Source: a virus. From it: a stretch of DNA of 64,000 nt. The stretch lies in the IMG/VR virus record IMGVR_UViG_3300020056_000007; one strand, given 5' to 3'. Shown piece by piece: positions 37,390 to 56,937 of this stretch. The translations under genes were made by a program, and so were the position numbers. The stretch's first letter is position 1. The number at the start of each line of letters is the position of its first letter. The notes below the pieces were generated by a model, which had not been told where the DNA came from, did no database searches, and saw nothing but the letters and a program-made list of their open reading frames with translations.

Positions 37390-37397
37390 GAGCAAAA

Positions 37398-42786: not shown

Positions 42787-43866
42787 ATGGCTGTAGTAAC
42801 ACCACTTAAAGTTTTAAACGGCGGAGATCTCAAGCAAATGAGTACTGCCGAAATAACTTATATTAAAGATAGATGTAGATATTTGTATGGTACAGACCCA
42901 ACTGTAACATTATCAGTTGTAACTACTGGTGCAACCAATCATATTGATGTTGAAGGTACGAATCAATATATGATTGATGATAGATGGCAAACTGGTACCT
43001 CTGCAACAAATGCAACTACTTATCCCGCCGAAGCTACAACAGGCGAACCAACAATTATTACACCAATTCAATATGATTATATTGATGAAACACGTACAGC
43101 TGCAAGTCAACCCTCTGACATTAATTCTGTAAGGTTTCCACTTTATTATGATGGAAATGGAGATCTTAGATCTATGTCTCAAACAGATATGTTAGATACA
43201 TTTATTTTGCCAGCAATTGATACTATAACGGCATCTGTGGGTCAGCCTGGAACATATAGAGTGCATACTGCAACAACGTTAGCTGGTTATACTGCTGTTG
43301 CAACAGATGCAATTTTTACTGATACTCGCGCAGATCAAAGTGCATATAATGTTACAGATACCCCTACAGCTCCAACAGGTGCAGCAGCAACAATTGGAGC
43401 TTCTGGTACTACACAAGATATTTCTGAAATAGTAAGTAACTATTATTTGTTACAAGCAAATAATATAAGTGAGCCAAGTATTACATTAGCATCAGATGAT
43501 TTAAATTATGGTGGTACTGAAGAACTTGCGCTTGCTTATATAGTAGCAGGACCTAATGATATTAGGGAGTATACTTTAGCTCAGCTAGATGATATATTAA
43601 AAAGTTACATGAAATATGCTGCGTCTGCTCATACTGGGTCAAGAATTCGTTATAGATTAGCATATGATGCGGATGGCGCTGGAGCAGGAACGGCTACTTA
43701 TACAGGTACAACGCTAGGAAGTGTAATTGCTAATACTAGGATCACATCAGTATCAGGTGATTTAAAAAGAAGGTTTGTGAATGCTAATGATTATCGTTCA
43801 CAAGAATTTCCCGTTGGAACTGCAACGGCTCAACAATATTGGACTTTAAAGATGGATCAATACTAA
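42787..43866 (+). CDS. virion structural protein (fibre-associated)
   Basis: Thr/Ala-rich 359 aa with internal repeat (GDLKQMS/GDLRSMS); GGAG RBS. Confidence 0.65.
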   Translation: MAVVTPLKVLNGGDLKQMSTAEITYIKDRCRYLYGTDPTVTLSVVTTGATNHIDVEGTNQYMIDDRWQTGTSATNATTYPAEATTGEPTIITPIQYDYIDETRTAASQPSDINSVRFPLYYDGNGDLRSMSQTDMLDTFILPAIDTITASVGQPGTYRVHTATTLAGYTAVATDAIFTDTRADQSAYNVTDTPTAPTGAAATIGASGTTQDISEIVSNYYLLQANNISEPSITLASDDLNYGGTEELALAYIVAGPNDIREYTLAQLDDILKSYMKYAASAHTGSRIRYRLAYDADGAGAGTATYTGTTLGSVIANTRITSVSGDLKRRFVNANDYRSQEFPVGTATAQQYWTLKMDQY

Positions 43867-44354
43867 TGTTTACAAAAGAAAACGTAATTAACGCAAGATA
43901 TTCTAATAACAGAGATTTAGTGTTAGTAGAATGGGTTGACGAAAATGATATTCGTCGAATTTATAATTTATTTGAAGATAATAATGATCCAGCATGGAAA
44001 TCTCTTAGAGAAGCTGGCTGGACTAAAAAGAAAATTGATGAAGCAAGCGAAAAGTATAAAGTCGATTTTTCAAAAAACTTCGAAGATTTAGCTAGAAATA
44101 TTTTTAGAAAAAATGATGAAGCTGAGTATAGAAATCTTTTAGAAGATTTATTTAATGATAATGTAGAAGATGGTCGTGATACTCAGCATTTATTCACTTT
44201 AAAATTATTTTTATTTGAATTAAGCGAAGTTAAAAGAAGCACTAATAGAGAAGCTAAAGTGGCTTTACGTAAAGCGAAAAGTTCAAGGGAAGCTTTGTTT
44301 ATAGCTATTGATATTGTAAAAGAAACTCCCCCAGTTGAGGCGGAAGAATCTTAG
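43866..44354 (+). CDS. hypothetical protein (possible fibre chaperone)
   Basis: TAATG coupling; charged helical protein. Confidence 0.6.
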   Translation: MFTKENVINARYSNNRDLVLVEWVDENDIRRIYNLFEDNNDPAWKSLREAGWTKKKIDEASEKYKVDFSKNFEDLARNIFRKNDEAEYRNLLEDLFNDNVEDGRDTQHLFTLKLFLFELSEVKRSTNREAKVALRKAKSSREALFIAIDIVKETPPVEAEES

Positions 44355-44901
44355 GATTCAACATAGTTTCATACGATTGATTAAATAAGTAAACGTTATA
44401 ATCAATTACATTTATTTTTTCTTTTTGTTCTATAAATTCATAAGAACAATACTTATCACTTCGTAAATATTGATTGAATGTTCCAGCAAATTTTTCATAA
44501 ATAAATTGATCTATTCCTCTTGAATATTCAATCATAAAATAATTTGGATCTTTCTCAAATCCTTTATAGATGTGAGAGTAATCGCCAGACCATGACATTA
44601 TACTACTATTAAGTGGTGTGTGAAATGGCTTTCTCCACCATGCATGGCATAAAGTAAAATTTTTTCTTACAAGATTATTACAGTCTCCTGTAATAATTAT
44701 GTCTAAGTCAAAATATATATTTTGGCCATCTCTATATCTATCGAACATAAGAAGCTTATTAAAAACTCCTTCATATTCATCATCTCTTATTACCACAAAT
44801 TCTTCATATTGTAAACCAGAAAAATTATCAATCATATGTTTTAAATTATCAACATACCATTCACTAAATTTATTTCCAGTGTTTACACAAATAATTCTCA
44901 T
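44305..44901 (-). CDS. GT-A fold glycosyltransferase-like
   Basis: ICVNTGNKF...YV..L, NKL, YFDLD, NSSIMSW, GIDQFI. Confidence 0.75.
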   Translation of the reverse strand: MRIICVNTGNKFSEWYVDNLKHMIDNFSGLQYEEFVVIRDDEYEGVFNKLLMFDRYRDGQNIYFDLDIIITGDCNNLVRKNFTLCHAWWRKPFHTPLNSSIMSWSGDYSHIYKGFEKDPNYFMIEYSRGIDQFIYEKFAGTFNQYLRSDKYCSYEFIEQKEKINVIDYNVYLFNQSYETMLNPKILPPQLGEFLLQYQ

Positions 44902-45569
44902 GTCCAATGCTTTCTTATCCAAGATGTATTAGATTTATGTATATAATTGTTATTAGTAAAATGCACAATTTTTATATCTTTATCAATTTCTTCATCCATA
45001 ATCATAAATTCTTTATTATATAATTTACAATATTCTAATTGCATTTGATAATTTAAAGCATCATCATTGTAGTATCGTACCATCCAATTATCTGGTAGAG
45101 TTACTATGTTTTCTACATTATCAAAAACAAAATTTTGTTCGCCGTGTCCTTTAATATTTACAGTGCCATTATTATAATAATATGATTCCCAATACTCTTT
45201 ATTTTTTGACCATTTATCAGTTAGATCAGTAAACGCATTTCCTTTAAATTTATAAAAGCCACCATTTATCGGTAGTGTACTTACTGTACTTGAATATGTT
45301 AATAATTCATTATCTTTAATTGGATATGATAACATGTCGTCAATATTGTTAACAATAACTTGATCTATATCCATAACTATAACATCATCGAGTGTTTCAG
45401 TAAATGTTGGATCAAAAAATTCTAATTTGTGCCAATGCGATTTTCTTTTTGGTTTATAACAAAAAAATTCAAAATCAATAGTCGTATTTTTAGATATTCC
45501 TCTTTCAAGTTTTTCAACATAATCATAAGAATATTTTCCTTCATAATATAAACAAAATATTTTTAACAT
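44898..45569 (-). CDS. GT-A fold glycosyltransferase-like
   Basis: KY..DYV..L, WHKLEFF, MDIDQ, INGGFY, GEQNFV, KIVHF. Confidence 0.75.
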   Translation of the reverse strand: MLKIFCLYYEGKYSYDYVEKLERGISKNTTIDFEFFCYKPKRKSHWHKLEFFDPTFTETLDDVIVMDIDQVIVNNIDDMLSYPIKDNELLTYSSTVSTLPINGGFYKFKGNAFTDLTDKWSKNKEYWESYYYNNGTVNIKGHGEQNFVFDNVENIVTLPDNWMVRYYNDDALNYQMQLEYCKLYNKEFMIMDEEIDKDIKIVHFTNNNYIHKSNTSWIRKHWT

Positions 45570-46291
45570 TTTCCTATAACCATAAACCTTTTATAACCAT
45601 TAGGCATATCAAGTGATCCTTTATATATTTTTTGTTTAATTCCTGATTTTTCTAATAATTCATCTTCATTTTCAACACAATTAATATGATCATTTACATG
45701 AAACATATTATTACTTTGTAAAGCAAATATTGTATTTTCTCTATAATTTTTATTTTCTAATATTTTAGGTAAGCTAGGCATATGTTCAGAAGAAGTATTA
45801 ATAACTACATGTGTTTTATCGTCATCCATAATTGGATCGAGTATGTTTTGACAATAATGATTTCCTGCAATATTATAAATTGACATAAAATTTTCAAAAA
45901 ACTTTTTCGTTTTAGGATCTATATCAATGTTATCAATTGATTCGATTTGATCTGAATTTTGTTTTAGCATTATAGATAATGGAGATCCAAACCAACCTCC
46001 TAATAGTTGAACTCTTATTTTCTCATTTAATTCAAAAAATGTTGGAATAACTAAAGATAATTTTTCAACTAACCATGTTTTAGATTCAATTTGGCTTGGG
46101 CCCATACTATCAAGAAAATGAACAATATCCATTTCTTTTTCGTATGCTATAGTCCATAACATTTGTAATAGATGTTTATTAATTTTATCTTCTAATAATG
46201 GTTTAGTAACTTTTAAATATGAATATGGATCAAGCTTTTCTTCGTTAAAAGCTTTCCATAACACATTCCATATTTCTTTTTCTATAATCAT
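45563..46291 (-). CDS. class I SAM-dependent methyltransferase-like
   Basis: SK.WL, LLGGWFG, IDID, VINTSSEH, ALQSNN, RFMVIG. Confidence 0.6.
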   Translation of the reverse strand: MIIEKEIWNVLWKAFNEEKLDPYSYLKVTKPLLEDKINKHLLQMLWTIAYEKEMDIVHFLDSMGPSQIESKTWLVEKLSLVIPTFFELNEKIRVQLLGGWFGSPLSIMLKQNSDQIESIDNIDIDPKTKKFFENFMSIYNIAGNHYCQNILDPIMDDDKTHVVINTSSEHMPSLPKILENKNYRENTIFALQSNNMFHVNDHINCVENEDELLEKSGIKQKIYKGSLDMPNGYKRFMVIGKC

Positions 46292-47781
46292 TTTCTTATA
46301 ATATAATCATTAATTACTAATAGATCCATTCCTGTTTTATTAAAAGTGGCAATTGCTTCTTCTGGTGTTTCTACAATTGGTTCTTGACAATTAAAGCTTG
46401 TATTTAATAACATAGGCATTGCAGTTGCATAAAAAAAATCAGTGATTAACTTATAAAATTTAGGATTATCACTTTCATTTACTGTTTGTATTCTTGCAGT
46501 ATTATCTATGTGAGTTACACCCGGAATTTTATCTTTATGTTTAACTTTTACAATTCTACTCATATATGGACTTGGTTTATGTGTATCAAAAAAATATTCA
46601 TACCACTCTTCTAAGACTGCTGGTGCGAATGGCCTAAAATCTTCACGTAATTTTATAGTATTATTAATTACAAATTTAATATCATGCCTTCTTGGATCTG
46701 CTAATATACTTCTATTTCCTAAAGCTCTATTTCCACTTTCTGATTCATCTTGAAACCAACCAACAATTGCACCATCTGCAATTGCTTGTGCTATTTCTTT
46801 GTAATTAACTTTTTCTTTACCTTTAAAATTATATTTTTTTCCAGCATATGTTTTTGGAGTATGAATGTTATTATTTAACATATAATCAGCATGCATATAT
46901 GTCCCTAATGCCTGTCCTTCATCTCCAGCTGCAGGCGGTACATGCACGTTTTCGTATTTTTCAAAAAACATTTCATTCACATATCCATTATAAGCAACTC
47001 CTCCTGCAATACATAAATTTGTTGATGATTGCAGAGGATATACGTGTTCTCTTATAATATCTTCTGTAAAGACTTGTAATGTATGTGCAATTGAATCTGG
47101 TGGAACATTTTGTGAATCTACCATACGTATAAAATCATCTTTATCAATTCGGTTTTGATGTAATTCTTCTAACATAAGATAGATAGAATCTTTTAAAGCG
47201 CCGTAAGCAGAAAGACCCATTACTTTTCCTGCACCTAAAAATCCGAAACCTAAATATTGAGAGATAAAATTCCAAAGTTCACCAATATTTATTTTGCTAG
47301 ATAAATCTATAATTTTTTGATTTTTATCAATAAAAATACAATTAAAATTATATCCTCTTCCGTCAATTGCTAATATATCTGATTCTTCAAATCCAGAAGT
47401 TAAATAAGCATATGCAGCATGTGATTGATGATGATCAATATAATATGTGTTATTAATCATTTTATAATCCCATAGATTAGTGGGTTTAAAATCAAGATAT
47501 TCTTTAGAAATTTTATATGGTGTTATTTGATTAACACCACCAATAGTAGTTGTGAAAGCAAACACTTCATGGTTTTCAGGTTTATAATATTCTTCATAGA
47601 ATTTTATACCAGCTTCGTTAGAATGTTTTTGTGGTATAAACACACCATTAAATGGATATACGTTTTCATCTAACTTAGGTAGATTATGTTTTAATCTACT
47701 ATATCTTTCTATTTGATTATGAAATAAACCATCATATGTATTATGATCATGAGGACTAAATGATGCACTAAAGATTTTCAT
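46288..47781 (-). CDS. carbamoyltransferase (NodU/CmcH/TobZ family)
   Basis: HD, ER..R.KH, DHHQSHA, IDGRG, GKVMGLSAYG, AGGVAYN, GDEG.ALG, E.G.RALGNRSILADPR, RE.FRPFAP, H.D.TAR.QTV, LLNTSFN. Confidence 0.95.
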   Translation of the reverse strand: MKIFSASFSPHDHNTYDGLFHNQIERYSRLKHNLPKLDENVYPFNGVFIPQKHSNEAGIKFYEEYYKPENHEVFAFTTTIGGVNQITPYKISKEYLDFKPTNLWDYKMINNTYYIDHHQSHAAYAYLTSGFEESDILAIDGRGYNFNCIFIDKNQKIIDLSSKINIGELWNFISQYLGFGFLGAGKVMGLSAYGALKDSIYLMLEELHQNRIDKDDFIRMVDSQNVPPDSIAHTLQVFTEDIIREHVYPLQSSTNLCIAGGVAYNGYVNEMFFEKYENVHVPPAAGDEGQALGTYMHADYMLNNNIHTPKTYAGKKYNFKGKEKVNYKEIAQAIADGAIVGWFQDESESGNRALGNRSILADPRRHDIKFVINNTIKLREDFRPFAPAVLEEWYEYFFDTHKPSPYMSRIVKVKHKDKIPGVTHIDNTARIQTVNESDNPKFYKLITDFFYATAMPMLLNTSFNCQEPIVETPEEAIATFNKTGMDLLVINDYIIRK

Positions 47782-48781
47782 AAATATAATCCGCTATTTT
47801 TATATGAGTTTCATTATTTGGATGACTATCTCCACCAATAGTATCACTATTAGAATTTATCCAAGTTTTTTTTCTACTAGCATAGTTAGTAAATCTTTGT
47901 TGAATATTATTTTCTATTTCTGTCTGTATAAATTCTAAACCATATTTTTCGCATTTTAACTTAAGTGTTTCTGGTGGATCGCTAAATGTAATATCATTTT
48001 TATTCCATGTTATATTATTAGGTTTATCAATTGGCCAATTTATAAAATTTTTAATTTTATCATAATACATATTGTTAGGTAAATACTCAATTAATTCTTT
48101 TTTTGATTTGTAAGGCCAATTATGTGCATGTAAATTTTTTACAATTGTAAAATTTGTGCGTTTATCACCAGACCTTTCACGGAATGGAATCATTGTTTTA
48201 AAGTTTTCATTTTCTTGAAAATCTCCATTCATCAAATTAAGCTTATCTTGGCTTGTAACTCTCCACCAATTCCAATATAAATTCATCCCTTGAATTTGTA
48301 CATATGGTATATTATAATTTTCACATAAGATTTGAAACATGTAAAAATAGCGTAAAGAATTATGAATCCAATCTTCGTAATTTCCAGGCGACCAATTGTT
48401 GTTACCATGCTTATACGCAGATTTTTTCATTTTTTCTGGTAAATCATTTTTATATTCTGGATTAATCAAATGAGGTTCAGTTTCTTGAGCTTCATAATCA
48501 CGCCTATTTGATTCAGTCCACATATGTATAACTAAACCAATATCTTTATGATCTATATAATTTAATAAATCAAGAGTACGATTATAAATTCCGTTATTTC
48601 CAGAACCACCAATCGCTAGATTAATTAATTTCATATTTAATTTTTTGGCTAAATGAACAGGCCAAGGAGTGTAATTTATACTTTTTAAAAAATTGTGTTT
48701 TGATGATCGATCTTCTAAATTAGTATTGCGGCCATATGTATATGCAGAAAAACTACATCCATTGACAATTAAGTATTTCAT
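47768..48781 (-). CDS. SGNH/GDSL hydrolase-like (esterase/acyltransferase)
   Basis: NGCSFS, NLAIGGSGN, C-terminal DSHPN..H. Confidence 0.7.
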   Translation of the reverse strand: MKYLIVNGCSFSAYTYGRNTNLEDRSSKHNFLKSINYTPWPVHLAKKLNMKLINLAIGGSGNNGIYNRTLDLLNYIDHKDIGLVIHMWTESNRRDYEAQETEPHLINPEYKNDLPEKMKKSAYKHGNNNWSPGNYEDWIHNSLRYFYMFQILCENYNIPYVQIQGMNLYWNWWRVTSQDKLNLMNGDFQENENFKTMIPFRERSGDKRTNFTIVKNLHAHNWPYKSKKELIEYLPNNMYYDKIKNFINWPIDKPNNITWNKNDITFSDPPETLKLKCEKYGLEFIQTEIENNIQQRFTNYASRKKTWINSNSDTIGGDSHPNNETHIKIADYIYENL

Positions 48782-49596
48782 TTCATAACTGCTCCAGCTG
48801 CTACAATATCTAAAATATCTTCTGGAAATCTTTTTTCAATAAACTCTGTACATTTTTTACAGTATTCTTCAAATTCAAATAATTCATAATTCATCATTTT
48901 TTCAATATTTTCTGGTGTAATATCAAATTGTCTAGATCCATTAATTACTTTTTTACTACAATGTCTTAATTTTTTTATTTCAAAATCAATTACCGGAACC
49001 TTTGGAAATGCAGCGCACATTCTTCTATCAAACTCAGGCGCCTGATCTGTTTCAGTCCAATCAGGAGATCTTGAATTAAATTCTTTAAACTGTGTATTTT
49101 CATGATCTAATATACTTAAATCAAAATTTTCTCTGTATTTAAAATAATTTGGTGTCATAATTACTACGTTATAATTATTCAAATTATTTTTTTCAAAAAA
49201 TTCAAAGTTGCCAAGTTTTTCAATTTTATCTTCGTGGAAATCTAAAACTAAATGTTCCATATAATATATAGTTGGATCTTCTAAAACTTCAGAATATCTT
49301 TTACGTACAAATGAATTAGAAAGAATTGATACAACAAATGTATCATACTCTTTTATCATATTAATGACTTCTGTTAAATTTTTAACTAGGCCTGGTTCAC
49401 CGCCCAATATATTAAAAATTATTTTATGCCCTTTAAAACATTCAAGTGTATGTCGTAAAAAATCCATATCAACATGAAGATTTCTCATTTCCAAAGTCCA
49501 TGCTGTACAATAATGACATGACTTATTACAAGATTTTGTTAAATAAAAATCAACTCCTTTATATCCATCTTCAAGTAATTCACGTCTAGTTTTCAT
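48778..49596 (-). CDS. radical SAM protein
   Basis: CNKSCHYC, LGGEPG, extra C-terminal Cys (C...C...CKKC). Confidence 0.9.
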   Translation of the reverse strand: MKTRRELLEDGYKGVDFYLTKSCNKSCHYCTAWTLEMRNLHVDMDFLRHTLECFKGHKIIFNILGGEPGLVKNLTEVINMIKEYDTFVVSILSNSFVRKRYSEVLEDPTIYYMEHLVLDFHEDKIEKLGNFEFFEKNNLNNYNVVIMTPNYFKYRENFDLSILDHENTQFKEFNSRSPDWTETDQAPEFDRRMCAAFPKVPVIDFEIKKLRHCSKKVINGSRQFDITPENIEKMMNYELFEFEEYCKKCTEFIEKRFPEDILDIVAAGAVMK

Positions 49597-49958
49597 GTTG
49601 ATTTAACATATCCTTTTGTTTGCTCAGACTCTAAAAATATTTCTTTTTTATGTTGAGGCGAATTTCTTTTTCTACATACTAAATGGCATAATGGAAATCC
49701 TTTTCCTTTACTTAAATTATTACGAAATTCAATCCATTCTTCTGTTAAAAAGATTTCTTCTACAGAATCATAATCTTCTAATCTACTAGCTAACAATAGT
49801 TGCTGATATTCAAAATTCTGTCTATTTACTTGAGTATCAAGCCAACAACACGGAATAACTTCCATTCTGTTTGTTAAGGCAAAAGCTTCTTGTCGCCTAT
49901 CAAAACATTTAGGATCTAATTCACTATTTTCATCTATATCTGGAATTTCTCTACCCAT
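49593..49958 (-). CDS. stand-alone SPASM/twitch-like Fe-S domain
   Basis: PKC...VIPCCW...C..VC. Confidence 0.65.
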   Translation of the reverse strand: MGREIPDIDENSELDPKCFDRRQEAFALTNRMEVIPCCWLDTQVNRQNFEYQQLLLASRLEDYDSVEEIFLTEEWIEFRNNLSKGKGFPLCHLVCRKRNSPQHKKEIFLESEQTKGYVKST

Positions 49959-50580
49959 CGTGTAAACTCAAGCTATGTTCTTTAGATGGTCTATATGGAT
50001 CATGTTCACCCAGCCATCTTGATGAATTAACTAACATAAATTGTACTCCCGCTTCTTTTGCCATACTATGTGCTTCTTCAATTGTATGTTCATTATAGTT
50101 AAATACAATATATTGCCAAACAGGCAATTGTTCTAAATGATTTTTTGCTTCTTTACAAATTTCAAAAAGTTTTTCACCGTCTTGGTTTATTCTATACTTG
50201 TGAGAATCTTTTGGTAAACCATCTATTCCAAACCACCAACGAGCTCTAGGGTTTGCTTGAAATGCTTTAATATACCATTCCATTTTCTTATAACCAGTTG
50301 CGTGATGTACAGATGTAGATTTTGGTGTTTCAGTATTATAAAAAGAATGAATATGACTTAAAAAGTCTATAAATTTTGGATGATGAACTGGATCTGAAAC
50401 TTGTCCGCAAAAGTTTATATGAGTAAAGTGATCAACTATTTTTTTAAATTCATCAAAAGGTAAATCTTTTCCAGGAACTTTAAGTCCTTTATGAACAAAG
50501 GCAGATTGTCTTTGACACCTTGGACATTCTAAAGGGCACCTATGAGTAATATCAACATTAATATGCCTTCTTTTAAGCAT
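49951..50580 (-). CDS. radical SAM protein
   Basis: CPLECPRC, FCGQVSDP, FGIDG....YR, WQYIVF.YNEH; start uncertain (50580-50622). Confidence 0.9.
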   Translation of the reverse strand: MLKRRHINVDITHRCPLECPRCQRQSAFVHKGLKVPGKDLPFDEFKKIVDHFTHINFCGQVSDPVHHPKFIDFLSHIHSFYNTETPKSTSVHHATGYKKMEWYIKAFQANPRARWWFGIDGLPKDSHKYRINQDGEKLFEICKEAKNHLEQLPVWQYIVFNYNEHTIEEAHSMAKEAGVQFMLVNSSRWLGEHDPYRPSKEHSLSLHDG

Positions 50581-50594
50581 ACGTAATCCATTGT

Positions 50595-51680
50595 TTATAA
50601 TATCGTTTGAATTGTTGAACATATATTTTTCACTTCACTTTCTGTTAACCATGGATTTATTGGCAATGATAAAACTGTATTAGATGCTATTTCAGCATTT
50701 TTTCCTTTACTTTTTCTATATTTTATGTTATTATATAAAGAATTTTTAGATAGAGGTTTATCGTAGTGAATTTGTAATCTAATATCAAATTCACGTAATG
50801 CTTGTATTACCCAATCTCTTGTTTCTTGATCTTCGAACCTTATAACATATTTGTGATAATTATGATCTAAATTTGGATCATAAGCCTTGTCCATAATAAT
50901 TGGTAAACTATTTAATTCATTATTATATATTTTAGCAATTTCTTGTCTTTTATCTTGCCACGATCTCCAATGTGATAATCTAAAAGATATAATTTCAGTA
51001 TTAAGTCTATATGGTTTAGAATTATATCCAACAAATTCGAAATCAGAAATTTTTCCATGACGGCGAAGACCTTTAACATATTCAGCTTTACTTTCTTCAT
51101 CAGTCATAAAAATGCCGCCGCCATTAATTCCAGCAATAACTTTATTAGAATTAAAACTATAAGAGCTACAATTTCCTATAGTTCCAGCTTTTCTACCATT
51201 TAAACTAGATCCTAATGATTGAGCAGAATCTTCAATAAAAACAATATTCTTTTCTTTACAGAATTTTTCTATTTCTGCAGTATCAGTCATATTGCCAAAT
51301 AGATGAGTATAGATTAAAGCTTTAACTTTAGGGCTATACATTTTTTGAATTTCTTTTAATGTTATATGATATGAATTCAAATCAATATCACAAAACACAG
51401 GAGTTGCGCCAACCATGGAAATGCAAGAAGATGAAGAAATCCACGAAAAATTACTTACTAAAACTTCATCACCTGGTCCAACATTGTGTGCTAATAACGA
51501 AAATTTTAATGCATCAGTAGCAGATGCAACTGCAACACAATATTTTCTACCATTAAAACTTGATATATCATTTTCTAATTTTTCTATACCAGTTTCATAA
51601 TTTTCATTCATATTGTCATTAAATATTTTCATATAATGACTAAAATTTGTTACAAATTCTTTATGCCAATTGTCGTACAT
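50595..51680 (-). CDS. DegT/DnrJ/EryC1/StrS PLP-dependent sugar aminotransferase
   Basis: SATDAL, GPGDEV, GATPVFCD, IEDSAQSLG, YSFNSNK, LSLPINP. Confidence 0.93.
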   Translation of the reverse strand: MYDNWHKEFVTNFSHYMKIFNDNMNENYETGIEKLENDISSFNGRKYCVAVASATDALKFSLLAHNVGPGDEVLVSNFSWISSSSCISMVGATPVFCDIDLNSYHITLKEIQKMYSPKVKALIYTHLFGNMTDTAEIEKFCKEKNIVFIEDSAQSLGSSLNGRKAGTIGNCSSYSFNSNKVIAGINGGGIFMTDEESKAEYVKGLRRHGKISDFEFVGYNSKPYRLNTEIISFRLSHWRSWQDKRQEIAKIYNNELNSLPIIMDKAYDPNLDHNYHKYVIRFEDQETRDWVIQALREFDIRLQIHYDKPLSKNSLYNNIKYRKSKGKNAEIASNTVLSLPINPWLTESEVKNICSTIQTIL

Positions 51681-52524
51681 TATCGTATGCTTTCAAAATA
51701 GGATTAAGGTTTTGTTTTTGAAAATCTCTATTCCAATAAACGTATCCTCCATCGTGTAAAGTTTTATCTCTTTCATATATCATATTTATGTTGTAATATC
51801 TACATTCCTGTATAATTCTTGGAGCAGGATCAAATTGTTCTTTACAATAAACATATGTATTAAATGTTCCTAATAAATTTTTTACTGGAGCCCATAAATT
51901 ATTTAAGCTTTTATCAACATAAAAATCATCATATGCTACTATTCCATAATTATCGTAATTATTAATAAGTTTTTGAGCAGTTATATAATAATCTTTATTT
52001 GTTCCAAGGAAAAGATTATCTACTAATATATTTTCAACTGGATCTTGATAAATTTCGAAATTAATTATTTTTTCAAATTGTTCTCCAACTCCTTTTAAAT
52101 ATACTTCGTGATCACATAAATCATATGTTGATTTAACGTTAAAATATTTTAATGCTTCAGTGTATCCATTTACATTTTGTTCTGAATACACTGATATTAT
52201 TATATCAAATAATAAGTGCAATGTAAACCGTTGATTTTCATTATATTCATTTATATTTTCGTATGGAATAGAAAGCATATTTCTACCCAATATAAGAGTC
52301 ACATCTCCTGCATTAGGAATATAATCATTAATATGAATATATTTAACGTAAATATATTTCTCTTTGAGAGAATTAATATAATCCTCTTCTTTAAAATTTC
52401 CTCTAGTAATAATAATTAAATTTGTTTCTATACCGGCTTCATTTAAAGCACAGCAATATTCATAACTATAATATAGTAATCCATCACATGGTTTACTAGT
52501 ACATACAATATTTAAACAACCCAC
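51661..52524 (-). CDS. hypothetical protein (possible GT-B-like fragment)
   Basis: 287 aa within operon; FDPAPRIIQEC weakly like GT-B C-terminal motif. Confidence 0.5.
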   Translation of the reverse strand: MGCLNIVCTSKPCDGLLYYSYEYCCALNEAGIETNLIIITRGNFKEEDYINSLKEKYIYVKYIHINDYIPNAGDVTLILGRNMLSIPYENINEYNENQRFTLHLLFDIIISVYSEQNVNGYTEALKYFNVKSTYDLCDHEVYLKGVGEQFEKIINFEIYQDPVENILVDNLFLGTNKDYYITAQKLINNYDNYGIVAYDDFYVDKSLNNLWAPVKNLLGTFNTYVYCKEQFDPAPRIIQECRYYNINMIYERDKTLHDGGYVYWNRDFQKQNLNPILKAYDNVRQLA

Positions 52525-53129
52525 TTAATAATCTCATCAACATCAGGTTTTTCATGCGCTTCAAGAATTGGAGGAGCAGCTTTATATCCTAATTGCATAC
52601 TAAATAATACGGGCTGTTTTTGTAAAAATTTAAATTCTTCGTCCCATCTTTTATCTTGTAATTGGTCTGGAAAGCATAATAAGTAAGAAACATTAATATC
52701 TTTTTCTATGCATAAACCAGTAAGTAGTTTACAAAACATTCCAATTTCTATAGCTGTTTCCATTTTTTGTTGAGGTCCAGCAAAATTATTTGGATCGCAT
52801 GTTTTATATAATTCCGCGTTTTTTCTCATAGCCTTTGCAATAGATGCGGGTGGGTATACTAATCTTGGAGTAAACATTAACACATATGGGGCTTTTGCAT
52901 TTGTATTATTAAATGAATTTGTATGTGTAGTCATATCATAAAAAGTTTCTTTAAGCTGTTTTTGTTTTGGACCTAAAACATAAACACTATATGGCATTAG
53001 CCTTTGTTTTGAAGCAACCAACTTATATGCTGTTTCAAGTAAAATTTGCACATCAGTTTCAGATGGATATATATCTTGTTGATATATTCTTATCTGTTGT
53101 CTTTTTGAATATACTTTTTCTATTGTCAT
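52512..53129 (-). CDS. nitroreductase-family flavoprotein
   Basis: KRQQIR.Y, LE.A....S.Q...PY.V.V, APYVL, EIGM, LGY. Confidence 0.75.
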   Translation of the reverse strand: MTIEKVYSKRQQIRIYQQDIYPSETDVQILLETAYKLVASKQRLMPYSVYVLGPKQKQLKETFYDMTTHTNSFNNTNAKAPYVLMFTPRLVYPPASIAKAMRKNAELYKTCDPNNFAGPQQKMETAIEIGMFCKLLTGLCIEKDINVSYLLCFPDQLQDKRWDEEFKFLQKQPVLFSMQLGYKAAPPILEAHEKPDVDEIIKWVV

Positions 53130-53860
53130 TTAAACGCCCATTCTTTTTCTTTACACCAAAAACATTTTCCACATGGTTTTGAAAAATAATTTGTTTCTTC
53201 TTCTGAACCTACACACGAACTTGTTAAAGGATATAATGTATCCATAAGTTCATGTTCTTTATAAACATTCGCTACAAACTTCTTATCGATATTTATATAA
53301 GGTTGATATATTGTTTTAAACCATGGCATTTGATTTCTAGTATCTCTACGCCTTTCAGCTAATTCATAAAAATTATTTTTTCTTTGTTCTTCTATTGGAG
53401 GATTACAAGTCATTCCTGTAATCATTAAGGCATTATTCCATTTTTTTCTAAGTTCGTTTTCAAAATGCCTTTTCATTAATATTTTTGTGAGTCCAGATAT
53501 AGAACTAGCTCTTTCAACTTTTTTTCCATCAATAATAACTTTTTCTTCTTCCCATTTTTCTTTAGCAAGATTTCTCCATTCTTTATCATTAATGTCAAAT
53601 TCAAAAACTTCATGCTCTAATATTTTTTGCTTTGGAAATTTTTCTTTCATAAATTGAATAATATCTTTAGCACATAAGTAATCAAATGGGGCCGTTTTGT
53701 CCCAACCGGTATACGGAATAATTTCAATTTCCGGAAAATTATTACAGATTAAATAAAACAATGATGCCGAATCTAAACCTCCCGATAAAGCAAGTAATAC
53801 TTGACTTGGAATTTTTTTATCAAATAAGTCTATTTCTTGGTTTCCATAAGATAATTTCAT
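53126..53860 (-). CDS. QueC-like PP-loop ATP pyrophosphatase
   Basis: LSGGLDSA; T.SC...PCGKCFWCKE zinc motif. Confidence 0.8.
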   Translation of the reverse strand: MKLSYGNQEIDLFDKKIPSQVLLALSGGLDSASLFYLICNNFPEIEIIPYTGWDKTAPFDYLCAKDIIQFMKEKFPKQKILEHEVFEFDINDKEWRNLAKEKWEEEKVIIDGKKVERASSISGLTKILMKRHFENELRKKWNNALMITGMTCNPPIEEQRKNNFYELAERRRDTRNQMPWFKTIYQPYINIDKKFVANVYKEHELMDTLYPLTSSCVGSEEETNYFSKPCGKCFWCKEKEWAFK

Positions 53861-55068
53861 GCTAGCTCCGGATATATTTCAAATAAGTTTGTTTTATATA
53901 GTTCGTCAGTTTTACGAATGTATTGAATAGCTTTATTATATTCATCTTCGTTTCTATCTAATAATAAACTATTATAAACTATTTCGTTATTAATGTACAT
54001 AGGCATCAATTTATTTTTTATTTTATCAGGTAAATTTTTTGGATGAAGTTCTTTTGGATCATCTACTACATATAATCTTTGGTCCAAATTGTTTTCATTA
54101 CACCATTTTTCTAATTCTTTAAATCTTAAAATACTTAAAAGTGATACAGTTGAAAATACTTGCATATGTACATTTTCATATTCTTTTAACAAATTATAAT
54201 TGTACATAATATCTTTCCAAAAAGATCTCCTTCTAATATAATCGTTATATTTTCCAAACCCATCTAAAGAAATATTGATTTGTAGAAACTCAAAATGTTT
54301 TATATAATCTAAAATGCTTTTATTTCCTGATCCTAATATTGTAAGATTAGAATTCATTTCTAATATTATATCTTCTCCACCCCAATCTGATTCTATTACT
54401 TTATCTAAATATTCAAATTGTTTTTTAAGAAGAAATGGCTCTCCTCCTTGTAATACAATTATTCTTGTGTATGGAATAATCTTTTCTATATTATCCAAAA
54501 ATCTATTTTGATTTTCTCCTCCTTTAAAAGGTTGCGGTTTTTCAAATGATACTAATTCATAATAATTATTTTCTCTTGAAGTTTTTTCTCGTACAGATGA
54601 ATTAAATGGATGACACATGTAACAATCTAAATTACAAGTAGTTCCAAATTGTCTAAATTGGAGTATTAAACCATTTTGTCGTAAAGATGGTTTACCATTT
54701 CTATAAAAATCATTGGTGATTTTAATAACTTCATCAATATCATTTATTTTGTTAGATAATTGTATTCTTTCAGAGTTGCCGTGGGTTTTTTCTTGTTCAA
54801 TACATCTTTGACATTGATGCTCTAATATTTTTTTATCTTTATCATCACCCAAACCAAGCGCAGCTCTCCGACAACTTTGATATACATTTCCAAAATACCA
54901 ATCAAGGGGATCCGTGTTTGATACTGTTTCTTTATTTGATCCTCCAACACAGCAAACGGTATATTCTCCAGTTGTGTTTGTGTAAATATGATCAAATAAT
55001 CTTGGACACCACCATGTTTGTTTTCTTAGATAATCTAAACTGCGTTCATTTTTAAGATCATTATTCAT
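53857..55068 (-). CDS. radical SAM protein with N-terminal twitch/SPASM-like Cys cluster
   Basis: CP...VCC...CQRC; CNLDCYMC; GGEPF; SLDG...DYIR. Confidence 0.92.
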   Translation of the reverse strand: MNNDLKNERSLDYLRKQTWWCPRLFDHIYTNTTGEYTVCCVGGSNKETVSNTDPLDWYFGNVYQSCRRAALGLGDDKDKKILEHQCQRCIEQEKTHGNSERIQLSNKINDIDEVIKITNDFYRNGKPSLRQNGLILQFRQFGTTCNLDCYMCHPFNSSVREKTSRENNYYELVSFEKPQPFKGGENQNRFLDNIEKIIPYTRIIVLQGGEPFLLKKQFEYLDKVIESDWGGEDIILEMNSNLTILGSGNKSILDYIKHFEFLQINISLDGFGKYNDYIRRRSFWKDIMYNYNLLKEYENVHMQVFSTVSLLSILRFKELEKWCNENNLDQRLYVVDDPKELHPKNLPDKIKNKLMPMYINNEIVYNSLLLDRNEDEYNKAIQYIRKTDELYKTNLFEIYPELA

Positions 55069-56459
55069 TCATAATATTCTTTCAATTCTGGAAATACATC
55101 GAATAAATGCATTTCCCATTTGGTTCCAATATATGCTTTATCTTGTTTTAGCAAATAATTAAATGTATCTTGAATACTTATATCTGGTTCTGGGTCTTTA
55201 GATAGTGCTGCTTGAATATCTGGCCAATCTTTATATTTTGGTAATAAATTTTCTTTTATTTTATCTGGTAAATTATTAACACGTAAATGTTTTGGTCTTT
55301 CAATCATTGCCCAGTTTATTTGATGAATCTTATCATTTCCCTTACAATAATCAATAACTTCATAAAAACGAAGTACACTTAAAAAAGAAACTAAACCGTT
55401 AAAATCAACATCAATATTAGGATACTTATTACACATATCGATATTATTTTCTAACTCATTCCAATTAGTTCTTCTTCTCATATATTCTATAGATTTTCCG
55501 ATTCCATCAACTGAACCTACCATAGCAATATTTTTAAAATGAGGGACATAATTAAAAAAATTATGTTTACCAGCAACCATTGTAGTAAAATTAGTTTGAT
55601 ATTTTATTCTAATATCTTTAGAATCTCCAGTCTCAACTAAAGCATCTAATAACTCATATTGTTTTTTCATAATTAATGGTTCACCACCAATAATTTTTAT
55701 GCTTCTTATATAAGGTGCTAATTCTACAACCTGTTCAACTATTCCCTTTGTTCTATCTTTACTTACATTTTCGTATATAGCTTTTTTTCTATCGAGAGAT
55801 CCCCAAATTTTTTCATCCCATACACCCTTTTTAGCCATATCCATGCGCATTGATGAATTAGCATGAATACACATATGGCAATCTAAATTACATTCTGATC
55901 CAAAAACTTTTAGTTGAATTTCAAATACTCTATCTTCAAAATCAAATATTCCACTTGCTTTAAACATATCTGCAGATTTTTCTATTCCATCCCAATGTTC
56001 CCAGTCATTAGTATGCATTTTCATACAGTTTGTTCTACGTGATCTTCCATATCTTTTTTCATCATCAACACACCTTTTACATATTTTATTTACTGCTTCA
56101 AAATTAGAGTTTGGATCAAGCATTTCTTCACGAATACTATTCATGTATTCGCTTTCTTCCATCCATTCTCTTAATGAAACATCTTCAACTTTTACACCAG
56201 AATCCGCACCAAAGCAACATGCTTTATAGTTGCCATTAATTTCTGAATATACTTGAGTAAAGGGAATAGAACAAAACCATATTTTTTTGTTCTTAGTCAG
56301 ATTTAATATAGAATTTGGATCTTTTTCTTTATTTTTACCAGTTGGGGAAAGTTTGGCAAACCAAGCTGAAGTATCATATTCTCCGGGTTTTGTTTTATCG
56401 CCTGGACCACCACGCAATAAATTATTCTTCAAAACTTCTTTTTTCACATATATCTCCAT
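55065..56459 (-). CDS. radical SAM protein with N-terminal twitch/SPASM-like Cys cluster
   Basis: CSIPF...ACC...CKRC; CNLDCHMC; GGEPL; SVDG...EYMR. Confidence 0.92.
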   Translation of the reverse strand: MEIYVKKEVLKNNLLRGGPGDKTKPGEYDTSAWFAKLSPTGKNKEKDPNSILNLTKNKKIWFCSIPFTQVYSEINGNYKACCFGADSGVKVEDVSLREWMEESEYMNSIREEMLDPNSNFEAVNKICKRCVDDEKRYGRSRRTNCMKMHTNDWEHWDGIEKSADMFKASGIFDFEDRVFEIQLKVFGSECNLDCHMCIHANSSMRMDMAKKGVWDEKIWGSLDRKKAIYENVSKDRTKGIVEQVVELAPYIRSIKIIGGEPLIMKKQYELLDALVETGDSKDIRIKYQTNFTTMVAGKHNFFNYVPHFKNIAMVGSVDGIGKSIEYMRRRTNWNELENNIDMCNKYPNIDVDFNGLVSFLSVLRFYEVIDYCKGNDKIHQINWAMIERPKHLRVNNLPDKIKENLLPKYKDWPDIQAALSKDPEPDISIQDTFNYLLKQDKAYIGTKWEMHLFDVFPELKEYYE

Positions 56460-56474
56460 AGTAATTACTTTTTT

Positions 56475-56482
56475 TATTTATA
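56475..56482 (-). promoter_or_regulatory. T4-type late promoter driving the radical SAM/carbamoyltransferase operon
   Basis: TATTTATA on + equals TATAAATA on -, 15 nt upstream of the ATG at 56459. Confidence 0.7.
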
Positions 56483-56503
56483 TCATTTACAAAGCGATTT
56501 TTT

Positions 56504-56511
56504 TATAAATA
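56504..56511 (+). promoter_or_regulatory. T4-type late promoter
   Basis: TATAAATA upstream of the 124-aa structural gene. Confidence 0.8.
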
Positions 56512-56562
56512 AAGGTAAAGCGGCAGGGTAGTAATACCGACAAAGAAACAAACGAGGATTTC

Positions 56563-56937
56563 ATGGCCCAATACGAAGAATTTACGATCGACCAAGGCAC
56601 AGATGTGGCCATTGAAATTCATTTAGTTGATGAACAAGGTAATGCTAAAGATCTTACCAACCACACAGTTAAAGCCCAATTAAGAAAAAATTATTCATCA
56701 GCAACCGCAACTGATTTTAATTCTATTATTGCAACTCCACCTACTGATGGTATTGCAACCCTTTCATTAACAAATACAGAAACACAAGCTTTAGATAAAG
56801 GTAGATACGTTTATGACGTTGAACTTTCTTTCTTAGATAGTGATAATCAACCAGTAATTGAAAGAATCCTTGAAGGTAGAGTTCAAGTTACTCCTGGTGT
56901 AACAACGCTTGATCATAGTGGCGGAGGAGTTAACTAA
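56563..56937 (+). CDS. small virion structural protein (BppU-N-like fibre adaptor)
   Basis: IDQGTD......DLT.....AQLRK.Y.S...G...LSL....T..L..GRYVYDVE...RILEG...VTPGVT. Confidence 0.75.
   Translation: MAQYEEFTIDQGTDVAIEIHLVDEQGNAKDLTNHTVKAQLRKNYSSATATDFNSIIATPPTDGIATLSLTNTETQALDKGRYVYDVELSFLDSDNQPVIERILEGRVQVTPGVTTLDHSGGGVN

What the first reader, a model, noticed from the sequence alone, without database searches (positions are those of the whole stretch)
44305..56482. 12-kb, 14-gene biosynthetic-type operon (4 radical SAMs, carbamoyltransferase, aminotransferase) inserted antisense among tail-fibre genes
Seen: contiguous, mostly overlapping minus-strand genes in the order rSAM, rSAM, QueC-like ATPase, nitroreductase, unknown, DegT aminotransferase, rSAM, SPASM-like, rSAM, SGNH, NodU-type carbamoyltransferase, MTase-like, GT, GT. 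The block is visibly more AT-rich than the flanking fibre genes and starts at a TATAAATA. Known: DegT enzymes make amino-sugars, NodU/TobZ enzymes O-carbamoylate sugars, and twitch-type rSAMs (BtrN-like) oxidise or epimerise sugars, a toolkit reminiscent of aminoglycoside tailoring. Inference: a swappable cassette making an unusual modified sugar late in infection, most plausibly for the virion. Alternatives are DNA hypermodification (phage carbamoyltransferases acting on hydroxymethylcytosine are known), host-surface modification or a small molecule.
Basis: partly seen in the sequence, partly recalled or inferred. Interest (0 to 1): 0.85.

Follow-up and report, generated by a model that had tools for sequence, protein, structure and literature searches.

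The report
Phage sugar-tailoring operon beside tail fibres
A marine T4-like phage carries a real, tightly packed 14-gene operon of soluble sugar-transferring, radical-SAM, amino-, carbamoyl- and methyl-adding enzymes beside its tail-fibre genes; it is the largest version of a variable enzyme island known in outline in SAR11 phages, and its product and target are untested.

Summary
Fourteen minus-strand genes (44305-56459) overlap at all 13 junctions and follow a TATAAATA late-type promoter. The one "unknown" gene (g5) is a compact GT-B glycosyltransferase.

The block is not a one-off insertion.
- A core of GT-B, DegT aminotransferase, radical SAM with a Cys-rich partner, nitroreductase-like flavoprotein, BtrN-like twitch radical SAM, TobZ/NovN-type carbamoyltransferase and MTase-like protein recurs in at least 122 IMG/VR phage stretches and in the cultured Pelagibacter phage Mosig.
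- It sits at the same site (VrlC - p359 - island - fibre-assembly gene).
- Relatives show gene fusions: PP-loop with rSAM, and GT8-like with MTase-like.
- The site holds a graded series of islands whose constant part is MTase-like plus GT8-like; this window holds the fullest form.

All 14 proteins are soluble. No lipid-carrier or export genes are present. No dCMP hydroxymethylase, DpdA or DOI synthase is linked.

Best reading (about 45%): late, cytoplasmic building and tailoring of an amino/carbamoyl/methyl sugar on a virion protein. The island type is already described (host recognition cluster, PMC7029224), and this scan found similar islands before on other DNA. Verdict: new member of a known kind, function untested.

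The parts
56475..56482 (-). T4-type late promoter motif TATAAATA, 15 nt upstream of the g1 ATG. A divergent copy at 56504-56511 (+) serves the fibre-assembly gene.
   Evidence: NATAAATA variants lie before the first island gene in relatives. Positional enrichment P 2e-14.
55065..56459 (-). g1: radical SAM with an N-terminal twitch-type Cys domain (N_Twi_rSAM); CNLDCHMC
   Evidence: NF033640 292 bits against cut-off 170; C-x12-G-x4-C at residues 63-81; fused to the g3 homologue in 4 loci
53857..55068 (-). g2: paralogue of g1 (29% identity), N_Twi_rSAM
   Evidence: NF033640 239 bits; alignment A5
53126..53860 (-). g3: QueC-like PP-loop ATPase (SGGLDS; C216, C230xxC233xxC236). Probably adenylates or amidates a carboxylate.
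   Evidence: Below the QueC equivalog cut-off (23.8 vs 150 bits).
52512..53129 (-). g4: nitroreductase-fold flavoprotein
   Evidence: family profile against PDB nitroreductases 1.3e-8; no single-sequence Pfam hit
   Evidence: Atlas structure matches to GT4/GT1 families, TM 0.64-0.69; 1437 homologues; present in 63 of 80 loci
50595..51680 (-). g6: DegT/DnrJ/EryC1 PLP aminotransferase
   Evidence: PF01041 6.5e-80; below all equivalog cut-offs; 77 of 80 loci
49951..50622 (-). g7: radical SAM core (CPLECPRC) without a C-terminal auxiliary domain
   Evidence: 63 of 80 loci
49593..49958 (-). g8: small Cys-rich protein, always directly after g7. Probably the detached SPASM/twitch-type auxiliary domain of g7.
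   Evidence: invariant C18, C37, C38, C91, C95 and consensus C-x14-G-x4-C; hhalign to the g1 N-terminus not significant
48778..49596 (-). g9: compact twitch radical SAM, BtrN-like. The most conserved gene of the island.
   Evidence: CNKSCHYC plus invariant C194, C213, C246, C249; 77% mean column identity; model pLDDT 75; BtrN Z 10.8, rmsd 3.8, 198 aligned; at least 1058 clusters
47768..48781 (-). g10: SGNH/GDSL-like hydrolase or acyl-esterase (motif level only)
   Evidence: invariant S10, G59, N62, D318, H320; no PDB or Pfam support
46288..47781 (-). g11: NodU/CmcH/TobZ-family O-carbamoyltransferase
   Evidence: PF16861 4.6e-63 and PF02543 2.8e-24; NovN, GdmN, TobZ 1e-45 to 1e-48; HHQSH aligned with their HHxxH
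45563..46291 (-). g12: class I SAM-dependent methyltransferase-like protein (an aminopropyltransferase is not excluded)
   Evidence: profile against PDB: spermidine synthases 4.7e-5, KsgA 0.03; viral-only Atlas family; fused to the g14 homologue in 5 loci
44898..45569 (-). g13: GT8-like GT-A glycosyltransferase, distant paralogue of g14
   Evidence: phrog_1962 8e-8
44305..44901 (-). g14: GT8-like GT-A glycosyltransferase with invariant DxD (D65, D67)
   Evidence: model pLDDT 67; Foldseek glycogenin 1.8e-4, GlyE 2e-4, Skp1 alpha-GalT; alignment A4
42787..43866 (+). p359: Thr-rich (15%) unannotated protein that always follows VrlC and bounds the island. Candidate acceptor (speculative).
   Evidence: 507 IMG/VR relatives; the only cultured phage with it is Mosig; no Pfam or PHROG family; alignment A8
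56563..56937 (+). tfa124: tail-fibre-assembly-like protein, the other boundary of the island, followed by the 1867-aa fibre
   Evidence: phrog_3304 8e-22; upstream and on the opposite strand in 16 of 16 loci

Best explanation
This is a late-expressed, single-operon set of 14 soluble cytoplasmic enzymes. It builds and decorates an unusual sugar, most likely on a virion protein encoded beside it: one of the flanking fibres, or the Thr-rich p359 protein.

Proposed order of events (inferred, not shown):
1. The GT-B enzyme (g5) and two GT8-like enzymes (g13, g14) attach sugars.
2. The BtrN-like twitch radical SAM enzyme (g9) oxidises a sugar hydroxyl to a ketone.
3. The DegT aminotransferase (g6) converts the ketone to an amine.
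4. The TobZ/NovN-like enzyme (g11) carbamoylates.
5. The MTase-like enzyme (g12) methylates.
6. The g7+g8 radical SAM, the nitroreductase-like flavoprotein (g4), the SGNH-like enzyme (g10) and the optional PP-loop ATPase plus two N-twitch radical SAMs (g3, g1, g2) add further tailoring, such as deoxygenation or epimerisation, (de)acylation, or amidation of a carboxylate.

Shown: gene content, operon structure, promoter motif, conserved linkage, fusions and site.
Inferred: the chemistry, its order, and the acceptor.
For: - Operon structure: all junctions overlap, there is one late-type promoter, and no convincing internal terminator.
- Conserved linkage: g9 occurs with g6 in 77, g11 in 76, g12 in 69, and g5 and g7 in 63 of 80 loci, with g9 followed by g11 almost invariably.
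- Rosetta-stone fusions: g3-g1, g3-g7 and g14-g12.
- Three glycosyltransferases.
- The g9 fold is nearest BtrN, anSME and SpeY, which are twitch/SPASM dehydrogenases. No SDR dehydratase lies in the operon or the held contig, so an rSAM-made ketone for DegT is the simplest route.
- g11 is homologous to sugar and natural-product O-carbamoyltransferases, with the metal motif intact.
- All 14 proteins lack TM segments, and there is no Wzx/Wzy or polyprenyl-phosphate transferase.
- The site is fixed between VrlC-p359 and the fibre-assembly gene in Mosig and in every locus where the flanking genes are detectable.
- In 45 of 45 p359-centred loci with at least 8 kb downstream, an MTase-like and/or GT8-like gene follows, and 40 have at least one rSAM.
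- The best structural matches of g14 are protein-glycan GT8s: glycogenin, GlyE and the Skp1 GalT.
- In Bacteroidota, N_Twi_rSAM genes sit beside an SGNH-like gene, an MTase, an MTase-GT2 fusion, GT-C enzymes and a fibre-like S74/T9SS protein.
Against: - No glycosylated virion has been reported for any marine T4-like phage in the papers I could find.
- The fibre region is a known permissive, hypervariable site that also collects auxiliary genes, so position alone is weak (PMC7029224).
- Enzyme specificities are undefined. g6 and g11 fall far below every equivalog cut-off.
- The g9 match to BtrN ties within 1 Z unit with peptide-modifying SPASM enzymes.
- The g14 model is of low confidence (pLDDT 67).
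- No nucleotide-sugar supply genes lie in the operon.
- The late-promoter call rests on a motif, not on expression data.
Confidence: 0.45

Rival explanations
1. Host-envelope remodelling: the enzymes make or alter host O-antigen or capsule sugars to block superinfection by competing phages. This is the reading proposed for glycosyltransferases of pelagimyophage host recognition clusters.
For: Proposed in PMC7029224. DegT, GT4-like and GT8-like enzymes, carbamoylation and methylation are all common in O-antigen pathways (established knowledge of these families). The DegT protein's best partial matches are PseC, LegC and ArnB.
Against: The late-type promoter is shared with virion genes, and exclusion functions are usually early. 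There is no membrane protein, flippase, polymerase or lipid-carrier transferase among the 14 genes. The fixed site is next to VrlC-p359 and the fibre-assembly gene.
Confidence: 0.15
2. A diffusible small molecule: an aminoglycoside-like pseudo-oligosaccharide or modified nucleoside, made late and released at lysis, for example to interfere with competitors or with host translation.
For: The triad of a BtrN-like rSAM, a DegT-type aminotransferase and a TobZ/NovN-like carbamoyltransferase, plus a GT4-like transferase, mirrors butirosin, tobramycin and novobiocin tailoring. A cyanophage paper flags similar genes as 'antibiotic synthesis genes' (PMC12801897).
Against: No 2-deoxy-scyllo-inosose synthase (DHQS-like) in the contig, in Mosig or in three large relatives. 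No exporter or self-resistance gene. The constant part of the island series is just GT8-like plus MTase-like beside structural genes.
Confidence: 0.12
3. DNA hypermodification: the glycosyltransferases and tailoring enzymes decorate hydroxymethylated bases, or another modified base, in phage DNA.
For: A 5hmC carbamoyltransferase of this family exists (PMC8670742). T4 glucosyltransferases are GT-B enzymes, and radical SAM and PLP enzymes take part in thymidine hypermodification (own knowledge). One island-bearing relative (G003) has a gp42-like gene with a KNDYAWQ motif. An unchecked scan note (e1-5736714) reports one in this genome, outside the held contig.
Against: No ThyA/gp42-type, TGT/DpdA or TET/JBP gene in the held contig (62% complete), in the complete Mosig genome or in a 91%-complete relative, all of which carry the core. 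No gp42-like gene within 10 kb in 161 loci (2.6 Mb), whereas 5hmC carbamoyltransferases co-occur with one within about 3 kb. The promoter is of late type.
Confidence: 0.1
4. Direct post-translational modification of fibre-protein side chains by the radical SAM enzymes (epimerisation, cross-links, oxidation followed by transamination), with the sugars secondary.
For: The SPASM/twitch relatives of g9 include the peptide-modifying anSME, SuiB, PqqE and EpeE within 1-3 Z units of BtrN. N_Twi_rSAM genes in a Bacteroidota genome sit beside a fibre-like S74/T9SS protein and five PhyH dioxygenases.
Against: Three glycosyltransferases, a sugar-type aminotransferase and a sugar-type O-carbamoyltransferase form the conserved core. 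There is no leader-peptide-like small ORF and no RiPP recognition element.
Confidence: 0.08

Closest known systems
Host recognition cluster (HRC), the hypervariable fibre island of pelagimyophages and cyanomyophages (Zaragoza-Solas et al. 2020, PMC7029224)
   Same: It lies in the structural module directly after VrlC, among tail-fibre genes. It carries glycosyltransferases and 'radical SAM cassettes' and varies between relatives by the gain and loss of cassettes.
   Different: That paper gives no gene-level account. New here: the defined core (GT-B, DegT, rSAMs, nitroreductase-like, carbamoyltransferase, MTase-like), the fixed p359/fibre-assembly boundaries, the fusions and the late-type promoter. 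The paper favours host O-chain modification.
Pelagibacter phage Mosig EXVC030M, genes Mosig_00082-00094 (MT647606)
   Same: Homologues of g4-g14 at 27-58% identity, at the same site and in the same inverted orientation between the p171/p359 homologues and the fibre-assembly homologue.
   Different: Different gene order. It lacks g1-g3 and has a second, opposite-strand cassette of Fe/2OG hydroxylases and others. Its rSAMs and the GT-B homologue are annotated as 'molybdenum cofactor biosynthesis enzyme'. Backbone proteins are only 27-42% identical.
Aminoglycoside and aminocoumarin tailoring: BtrN with BtrS (butirosin), SpeY (spectinomycin), TobZ (tobramycin), NovN (novobiocin)
   Same: Same enzyme logic: a twitch rSAM dehydrogenase makes a ketone, a DegT-family enzyme aminates it, and a TobZ/NovN-type enzyme O-carbamoylates (pathway roles from established literature).
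   Different: No DOI synthase or inositol-phosphate synthase. Sequence identity to these enzymes is 11-30%. The host is a phage and the context is virion genes. Membership in any of these pathways is not supported.
Cytoplasmic protein O-glycosylation systems: serine-rich-repeat adhesin glycosylation (GT4 GtfA/B plus GT8 GlyE and others), glycogenin, chlorovirus PBCV-1 A064R (GT-GT-MTase fusion), mycobacteriophage virion glycosylation
   Same: Soluble GT4-like plus GT8-like transferases act without lipid carriers. GT-MTase fusions occur in relatives, as in A064R. g14's best structural matches are glycogenin and GlyE. The system descriptions come from my own knowledge.
   Different: No acceptor has been shown here. 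None of those systems uses radical SAM enzymes, a DegT aminotransferase or a carbamoyltransferase.
5-hydroxymethylcytosine carbamoyltransferase system (Yang et al. 2021, PMC8670742)
   Same: Same carbamoyltransferase superfamily, found in phages.
   Different: Those enzymes sit next to a dCMP hydroxymethylase homologue. g11-type genes sit between a radical SAM gene and an MTase/GT gene, with no such neighbour in 161 loci, and the core occurs in genomes without one.

Membership tests
Host recognition cluster (HRC) of marine T4-like myophages (PMC7029224) | Lies in the structural module immediately downstream of the VrlC gene, among tail-fibre genes | tested here: met
   VrlC-like ORFs at 33409-39047 (phrog_358, 7e-208 and 8e-82); fibres at 39276, 56937 and 62602
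Host recognition cluster (HRC) of marine T4-like myophages (PMC7029224) | Bounded on the far side by the neck gene gp14 | not tested
   I did not identify gp14; the window ends within the fibre genes
Host recognition cluster (HRC) of marine T4-like myophages (PMC7029224) | Non-syntenic or hypervariable between relatives, and carries glycosyltransferase or radical SAM cassettes | tested here: met
   Island content ranges from GT8-like plus MTase-like only (2.8-4.5 kb) up to the full 14 genes
N_Twi_rSAM (NCBIfam NF033640), g1 and g2 | Whole-protein score above the curated cut-off (170 bits) and a CxxxCxxC motif | tested here: met
   292 and 239 bits; CNLDCHMC and CNLDCYMC
Twitch-type radical SAM dehydrogenase (BtrN-like), g9 | CxxxCxxC plus four conserved C-terminal Cys for an auxiliary cluster; compact size of about 250-270 aa | tested here: met
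   C23/27/30 and C194, C213, C246, C249 are invariant in 21 sequences
Twitch-type radical SAM dehydrogenase (BtrN-like), g9 | Fold closest to BtrN rather than to other radical SAM classes | tested here: inconclusive
   BtrN ranks first (Z 10.8, 198 aligned), but SuiB, anSME and PqqE are within about 1 Z unit; Foldseek E 3e-3
Twitch-type radical SAM dehydrogenase (BtrN-like), g9 | Oxidises a secondary alcohol of a sugar or cyclitol | not testable with these tools
   Needs an enzyme assay
DegT/DnrJ/EryC1 sugar aminotransferases, g6 | Full-length Pfam PF01041 match above cut-off | tested here: met
   269.5 bits against 19.8, covering profile positions 26-359 of 360
PseC / LegC / ArnB equivalogs, g6 | Score above the equivalog cut-off | tested here: not met
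   187.5 vs 423.5; 175 vs 420; 164 vs 631 bits
NodU/CmcH/TobZ O-carbamoyltransferases, g11 | Both Carbam_trans_N and Carbam_trans_C domains above cut-off, and the HxxxH metal motif | tested here: met
   86.6 and 212.2 bits; HHQSH aligns with HHLAH and HHEAH of NovN and GdmN. The NodU equivalog is not met (121 vs 1000 bits).
5hmC carbamoyltransferase DNA-modification system (PMC8670742) | Carbamoyltransferase gene co-located with a dCMP hydroxymethylase (thymidylate-synthase fold) gene | tested here: not met
   No PF00303 in the held contig or in Mosig; no gp42-like hit within 10 kb in 161 loci. The held contig is only 62% complete.
7-deazaguanine DNA modification (QueC/QueE/DpdA) | DpdA/TGT transglycosylase present, and QueC at equivalog level | tested here: not met
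   No PF01702 in 5 records; g3 scores 23.8 bits against the 150.3 QueC cut-off
2-deoxystreptamine aminoglycoside pathway | 2-deoxy-scyllo-inosose synthase (DHQS fold) | tested here: not met
   No PF01761 in the held contig, Mosig or three relatives
GT8 glycosyltransferases, g14 (and g13) | GT-A fold with a DxD motif, nearest GT8 structures | tested here: met
   Glycogenin 1.8e-4 and GlyE 2e-4, probability 1.0; invariant D65 and D67. The model pLDDT is only 67, so this is fold-level only.
SGNH hydrolases, g10 | Conserved Ser, Gly, Asn and His blocks, plus a family or fold match | tested here: inconclusive
   S10, G59, N62 and H320 are invariant, but there is no Pfam match above cut-off and no PDB profile match

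The most novel reading that the evidence does not exclude
The island is a viral, cytoplasmic protein-glycosylation system. It tailors the sugar after attachment with radical SAM oxidation, transamination and carbamoylation (aminoglycoside-type chemistry), and decorates a virion protein: p359 or a fibre. The graded island series would then be a way to diversify the virion surface chemically. No virus is known to use radical SAM enzymes to tailor its own glycans.
Probability: 0.35. Interest if true: 0.8.

Novelty: new member of a known kind. Interest (0 to 1): 0.45.

Why it matters
T4-like phages of SAR11 and their neighbours are among the most abundant large phages in the sea. The g9 family alone has more than 1000 sequence clusters in metagenomes. 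These phages spend up to 12 kb on this enzyme set, and nobody has shown what it makes.

If the product decorates the virion, it would be a new layer of host-range or immune-evasion chemistry and a source of new radical SAM sugar enzymes. The practical gain from this work is a defined core, defined boundaries and a culturable test system: phage Mosig on Pelagibacter ubique HTCC1062.

Tried and rejected
- Megablast of the block against cultured phages: no match.
- Single-sequence PDB searches of g1 and g5: nothing.
- g9 relatives in 185,579 bacterial and archaeal genomes by pattern: none. g1: only one 1.7-kb contig of a Flavobacteriaceae MAG, probably phage DNA. The core therefore looks phage-restricted at this sensitivity.
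- Alignment A5 was too divergent for a genome scan.
- g8 against the g1 N-terminal domain by hhalign: aligned at the expected Cys motifs but not significant.
- g10 and g14 family profiles against PDB: nothing useful.
- Sigma-70 promoter scan: at chance level. Terminator-like sites: weak and inside genes.
- Rfam: no RNA family in 43000-57500.
- RiPP reading rejected: there is no room for a precursor ORF, and g8 is a Cys-domain protein.
- DS 'sequon' idea: counts confirmed (66 observed vs 20.6 expected in the 1867-aa fibre; 19 vs 7 in the 1156-aa fibre). Most copies sit inside tandem structural repeats, so this is not evidence of a glycosylation site.
- Low GC as a sign of foreign origin: rejected as mainly amino-acid composition.
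- p359 has no PHROG or Pfam family.
- I did not run complex prediction, because enzyme-acceptor pairs are outside what it tests well.

Full report
**Observation.** The window is part of a 104,858-bp IMG/VR virus contig, about 62% complete. Every one of the 13 junctions overlaps by 4-28 nt. g14 most likely starts at 44901 in an ATGA overlap. A TATAAATA lies 15 nt upstream of the first ATG, and a second, divergent copy serves the neighbouring plus-strand gene. The raw count of this octamer is not above chance. Its placement is: 14 of 20 copies in the contig lie within 120 nt upstream of a gene start in the right orientation, where 5% would be expected (P 2e-14). No sigma-70 excess, no convincing terminator and no Rfam element lies inside the block. 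The block is the lowest-GC 12 kb of the contig (27.6% vs 34.4%). The difference is mainly at codon positions 1+2, so it reflects enzyme versus fibre amino-acid composition more than foreign origin.

**Gene by gene.**
- g1 and g2 are paralogous radical SAM enzymes of NCBIfam N_Twi_rSAM, well above its cut-off. They have an N-terminal C-x12-G-x4-C twitch-type motif.
- g3 is a PP-loop ATPase (SGGLDS) with a QueC-like C-terminal Cys cluster, far below the QueC equivalog score.
- g4 has no single-sequence hit, but its family profile matches nitroreductase structures at 1.3e-8.
In phage Mosig its homologue is annotated as a molybdenum-cofactor enzyme.
- g6 is a full-length DegT aminotransferase, below every equivalog cut-off.
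- g7 is a radical SAM core. g8 always follows it. It has five invariant Cys, and the family consensus has a C-x14-G-x4-C signature, so it is probably a detached auxiliary-cluster domain. Profile comparison with the g1 N-terminus was not significant.
- g9 is a 272-aa radical SAM with four invariant C-terminal Cys. Its model (pLDDT 75) matches BtrN best (Z 10.8, 198 residues aligned). anSME, SuiB, PqqE and SpeY follow within 1-2 Z units.
- g10 is SGNH-like only at motif level.
- g11 has both carbamoyltransferase domains. It aligns to NovN, GdmN and TobZ at 1e-45 to 1e-48 with the HxxxH motif conserved.
- g12 has a class I methyltransferase-type fold. Its best but weak matches are spermidine synthases.
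- g13 and g14 are GT8-like GT-A transferases with an invariant DxD. g14's best structural matches are glycogenin, the adhesin-glycosylating GlyE and the Skp1 galactosyltransferase.
- None of the 14 proteins has a membrane-spanning segment.

**Context.** Upstream lie a baseplate wedge gene, a VrlC-like protein split into two ORFs, a 1156-aa fibre, an unannotated Thr-rich 359-aa protein (p359) and a 171-aa ORF. Downstream lie a fibre-assembly-like 124-aa protein, an 1867-aa fibre and a 412-aa fibre. This is the 'host recognition cluster' described for pelagimyophages. [quoted passage not shown]

**Relatives.**
- The only cultured phage with this set is Pelagibacter phage Mosig. It has homologues of g4-g14 at 27-58% identity, in a different order. 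They sit in the same inverted position between the p171/p359 homologues and the fibre-assembly homologue. Its VrlC and baseplate proteins are only 27-33% identical, and the nearest cultured backbone is another phage, C48C1.
- A scan with g9 found 122 IMG/VR stretches. In the 80 kept, g6 is present in 77, g11 in 76, g12 in 69, g5 and g7 in 63 each, g4 in 52, the g3+g1+g2 trio in about 32-36, g14 in 28 and g10 in 19. g9 is followed by g11 almost invariably.
- Where flanking homologues are detectable they are on the opposite strand and on the same sides as here.
- NATAAATA variants precede the first island gene in relatives.
- Single-ORF fusions link g3 to g1 (four loci), g3 to g7 (one locus) and g14 to g12 (five loci).
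- Scanning from the other side, the p359 family has 507 IMG/VR stretches. In all 45 loci with at least 8 kb downstream, an MTase-like and/or GT8-like gene follows; 40 have a radical SAM gene and 29 a carbamoyltransferase. The distance from p359 to the fibre-assembly gene ranges from 2.8 kb upward.
- The window therefore holds the fullest form of a graded series at one fixed site.
- The g9 and g5 families have more than 1000 clusters each in metagenomes. No close relative of g9 was found in 185,579 prokaryote genomes.

**Testing the rivals.**
- DNA hypermodification. 5hmC carbamoyltransferases are real and co-occur with a thymidylate-synthase-fold hydroxymethylase within about 3 kb (PMC8670742). 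Here no PF00303, TGT/DpdA or TET/JBP gene is found in the held contig, in the complete Mosig genome or in a 91%-complete relative that carries the core. None of 161 island- or p359-centred loci (2.6 Mb) has a gp42-like gene within 10 kb. One relative does have a gp42-like gene about 52 kb away. An unchecked scan note reports one in this genome, outside the held contig. The rival is weakened, not excluded.
- A 2-deoxystreptamine-type small molecule lacks its committed enzyme.
- Host O-antigen remodelling lacks any membrane, flippase or lipid-carrier step and fits a late promoter poorly.
- A RiPP-type reading lacks a precursor ORF.

**Bacterial context of the N-twitch radical SAM family.** I sampled 300 Bacteroidota genomes and examined two loci. 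In one genome a pair of these genes sits beside five PhyH dioxygenases, a WelO5-like protein, a methyltransferase, an SGNH-like protein and a secreted fibre-like protein with an S74 chaperone domain. In another, four copies sit beside a GDSL-like protein, an MTase-GT2 fusion and two GT-C transferases. Both contexts point to surface-protein or glycan modification. This is a lead, not a proof.

**Mechanism proposed.** Late in infection one transcript yields soluble enzymes.
1. The glycosyltransferases attach sugars to an acceptor in the cytoplasm.
2. The BtrN-like g9 oxidises a hydroxyl. No SDR dehydratase is encoded in the operon or the held contig.
3. g6 aminates the ketone, g11 carbamoylates and g12 methylates.
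4. The remaining enzymes add optional tailoring.

The acceptor is most plausibly a virion protein encoded beside the island. Only the gene content, architecture, promoter motif, linkage and fusions are shown. The chemistry and the target are inference (confidence about 0.45).

**Comparison and novelty.** The island is a member of the already described host recognition cluster. This scan has reported several similar fibre-adjacent radical SAM and glycosyltransferase islands in other phage genomes. New here are:
- the defined core and its optional modules;
- the fixed p359/fibre-assembly boundaries;
- the fusions;
- the identification of g5 as a GT-B enzyme;
- the BtrN-like fold of the most conserved gene;
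- the negative linkage to DNA-modification genes;
- a culturable test system (Mosig).

I rate it a new member of a known kind with moderate interest. It would rank much higher if virion glycan tailoring by radical SAM enzymes were demonstrated.

Noticed in passing
window 42787-43866 (+): p359 is an unannotated Thr-rich (15%) protein family with 507 IMG/VR stretches. It always follows VrlC and always precedes an enzyme island. Among cultured phages it occurs only in Mosig. The window's copy carries extra Thr/Ala/Gly-rich insertions relative to 21 homologues.
   Followed up: partly
window 56937-62540 and 39276-42746 (+): Asp-Ser dipeptides are enriched in the two fibres flanking the operon (66 observed vs 20.6 expected; 19 vs 7). 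Most lie inside tandem repeats (about 15 aa, ...VDSAYIGQL...; AINELHDS), and many fit D-S-[AILV]. Structural repeats are the simpler explanation.
   Followed up: partly
window 33409-37389 and 37398-39047 (+): The VrlC-like baseplate protein is split into two adjacent ORFs. They match successive parts of phrog_358 (positions 589-1411 and 1761-2055).
   Followed up: no
window 62602-63840 (+); also 56937-62540: The 412-aa fibre protein has a plastocyanin/azurin-type copper-binding domain above the Pfam cut-off (PF00127, 24.9 bits against 21.2). The 1867-aa fibre has a weak cupredoxin hit.
   Followed up: no
L097 (G084:C2:1208000-1227999) and L098 (G156:C6:33000-52999): Bacteroidota chromosomes carry clustered N_Twi_rSAM paralogues. 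In one they sit beside five PhyH dioxygenases, a WelO5-like protein, an MTase, an SGNH-like protein and an S74/T9SS fibre-like protein. In the other they sit beside a GDSL-like protein, an MTase-GT2 fusion and GT-C enzymes. These are uncharacterised bacterial counterparts of the phage tailoring sets.
   Followed up: partly
L001 (Mosig MT647606, 60990-71305 of the record): The public annotation calls the GT-B homologue and the radical SAM genes 'molybdenum cofactor biosynthesis enzyme'. A second, opposite-strand cassette of Asp/Arg hydroxylases, a TauD-like dioxygenase, an acetyltransferase, a methylase and an FMN reductase abuts it.
   Followed up: no
L082 (G003:C1:119247-122909): An island-bearing relative has a gp42-like thymidylate-synthase-fold gene with a KNDYAWQ motif, about 52 kb from its island. 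The search tool counted two TAA stops within the matched stretch; in my translation the stops lie in the 90-nt flanks.
   Followed up: no
L083-L087 (G005, Flavobacteriaceae MAG contigs of 1.7-2.9 kb): Short MAG contigs carry phage-like N_Twi_rSAM genes (52% identity to g1). This is probably phage DNA binned into a bacterial MAG.
   Followed up: no
window 53290-53297 (-): A second exact TATAAATA lies inside g3, 160 nt upstream of the g4 start. It may be an internal late promoter or chance.
   Followed up: no
window 8791-9164 (+): A cluster of three tRNA genes: Arg-TCT, Pro-TGG and Leu-TAA.
   Followed up: no
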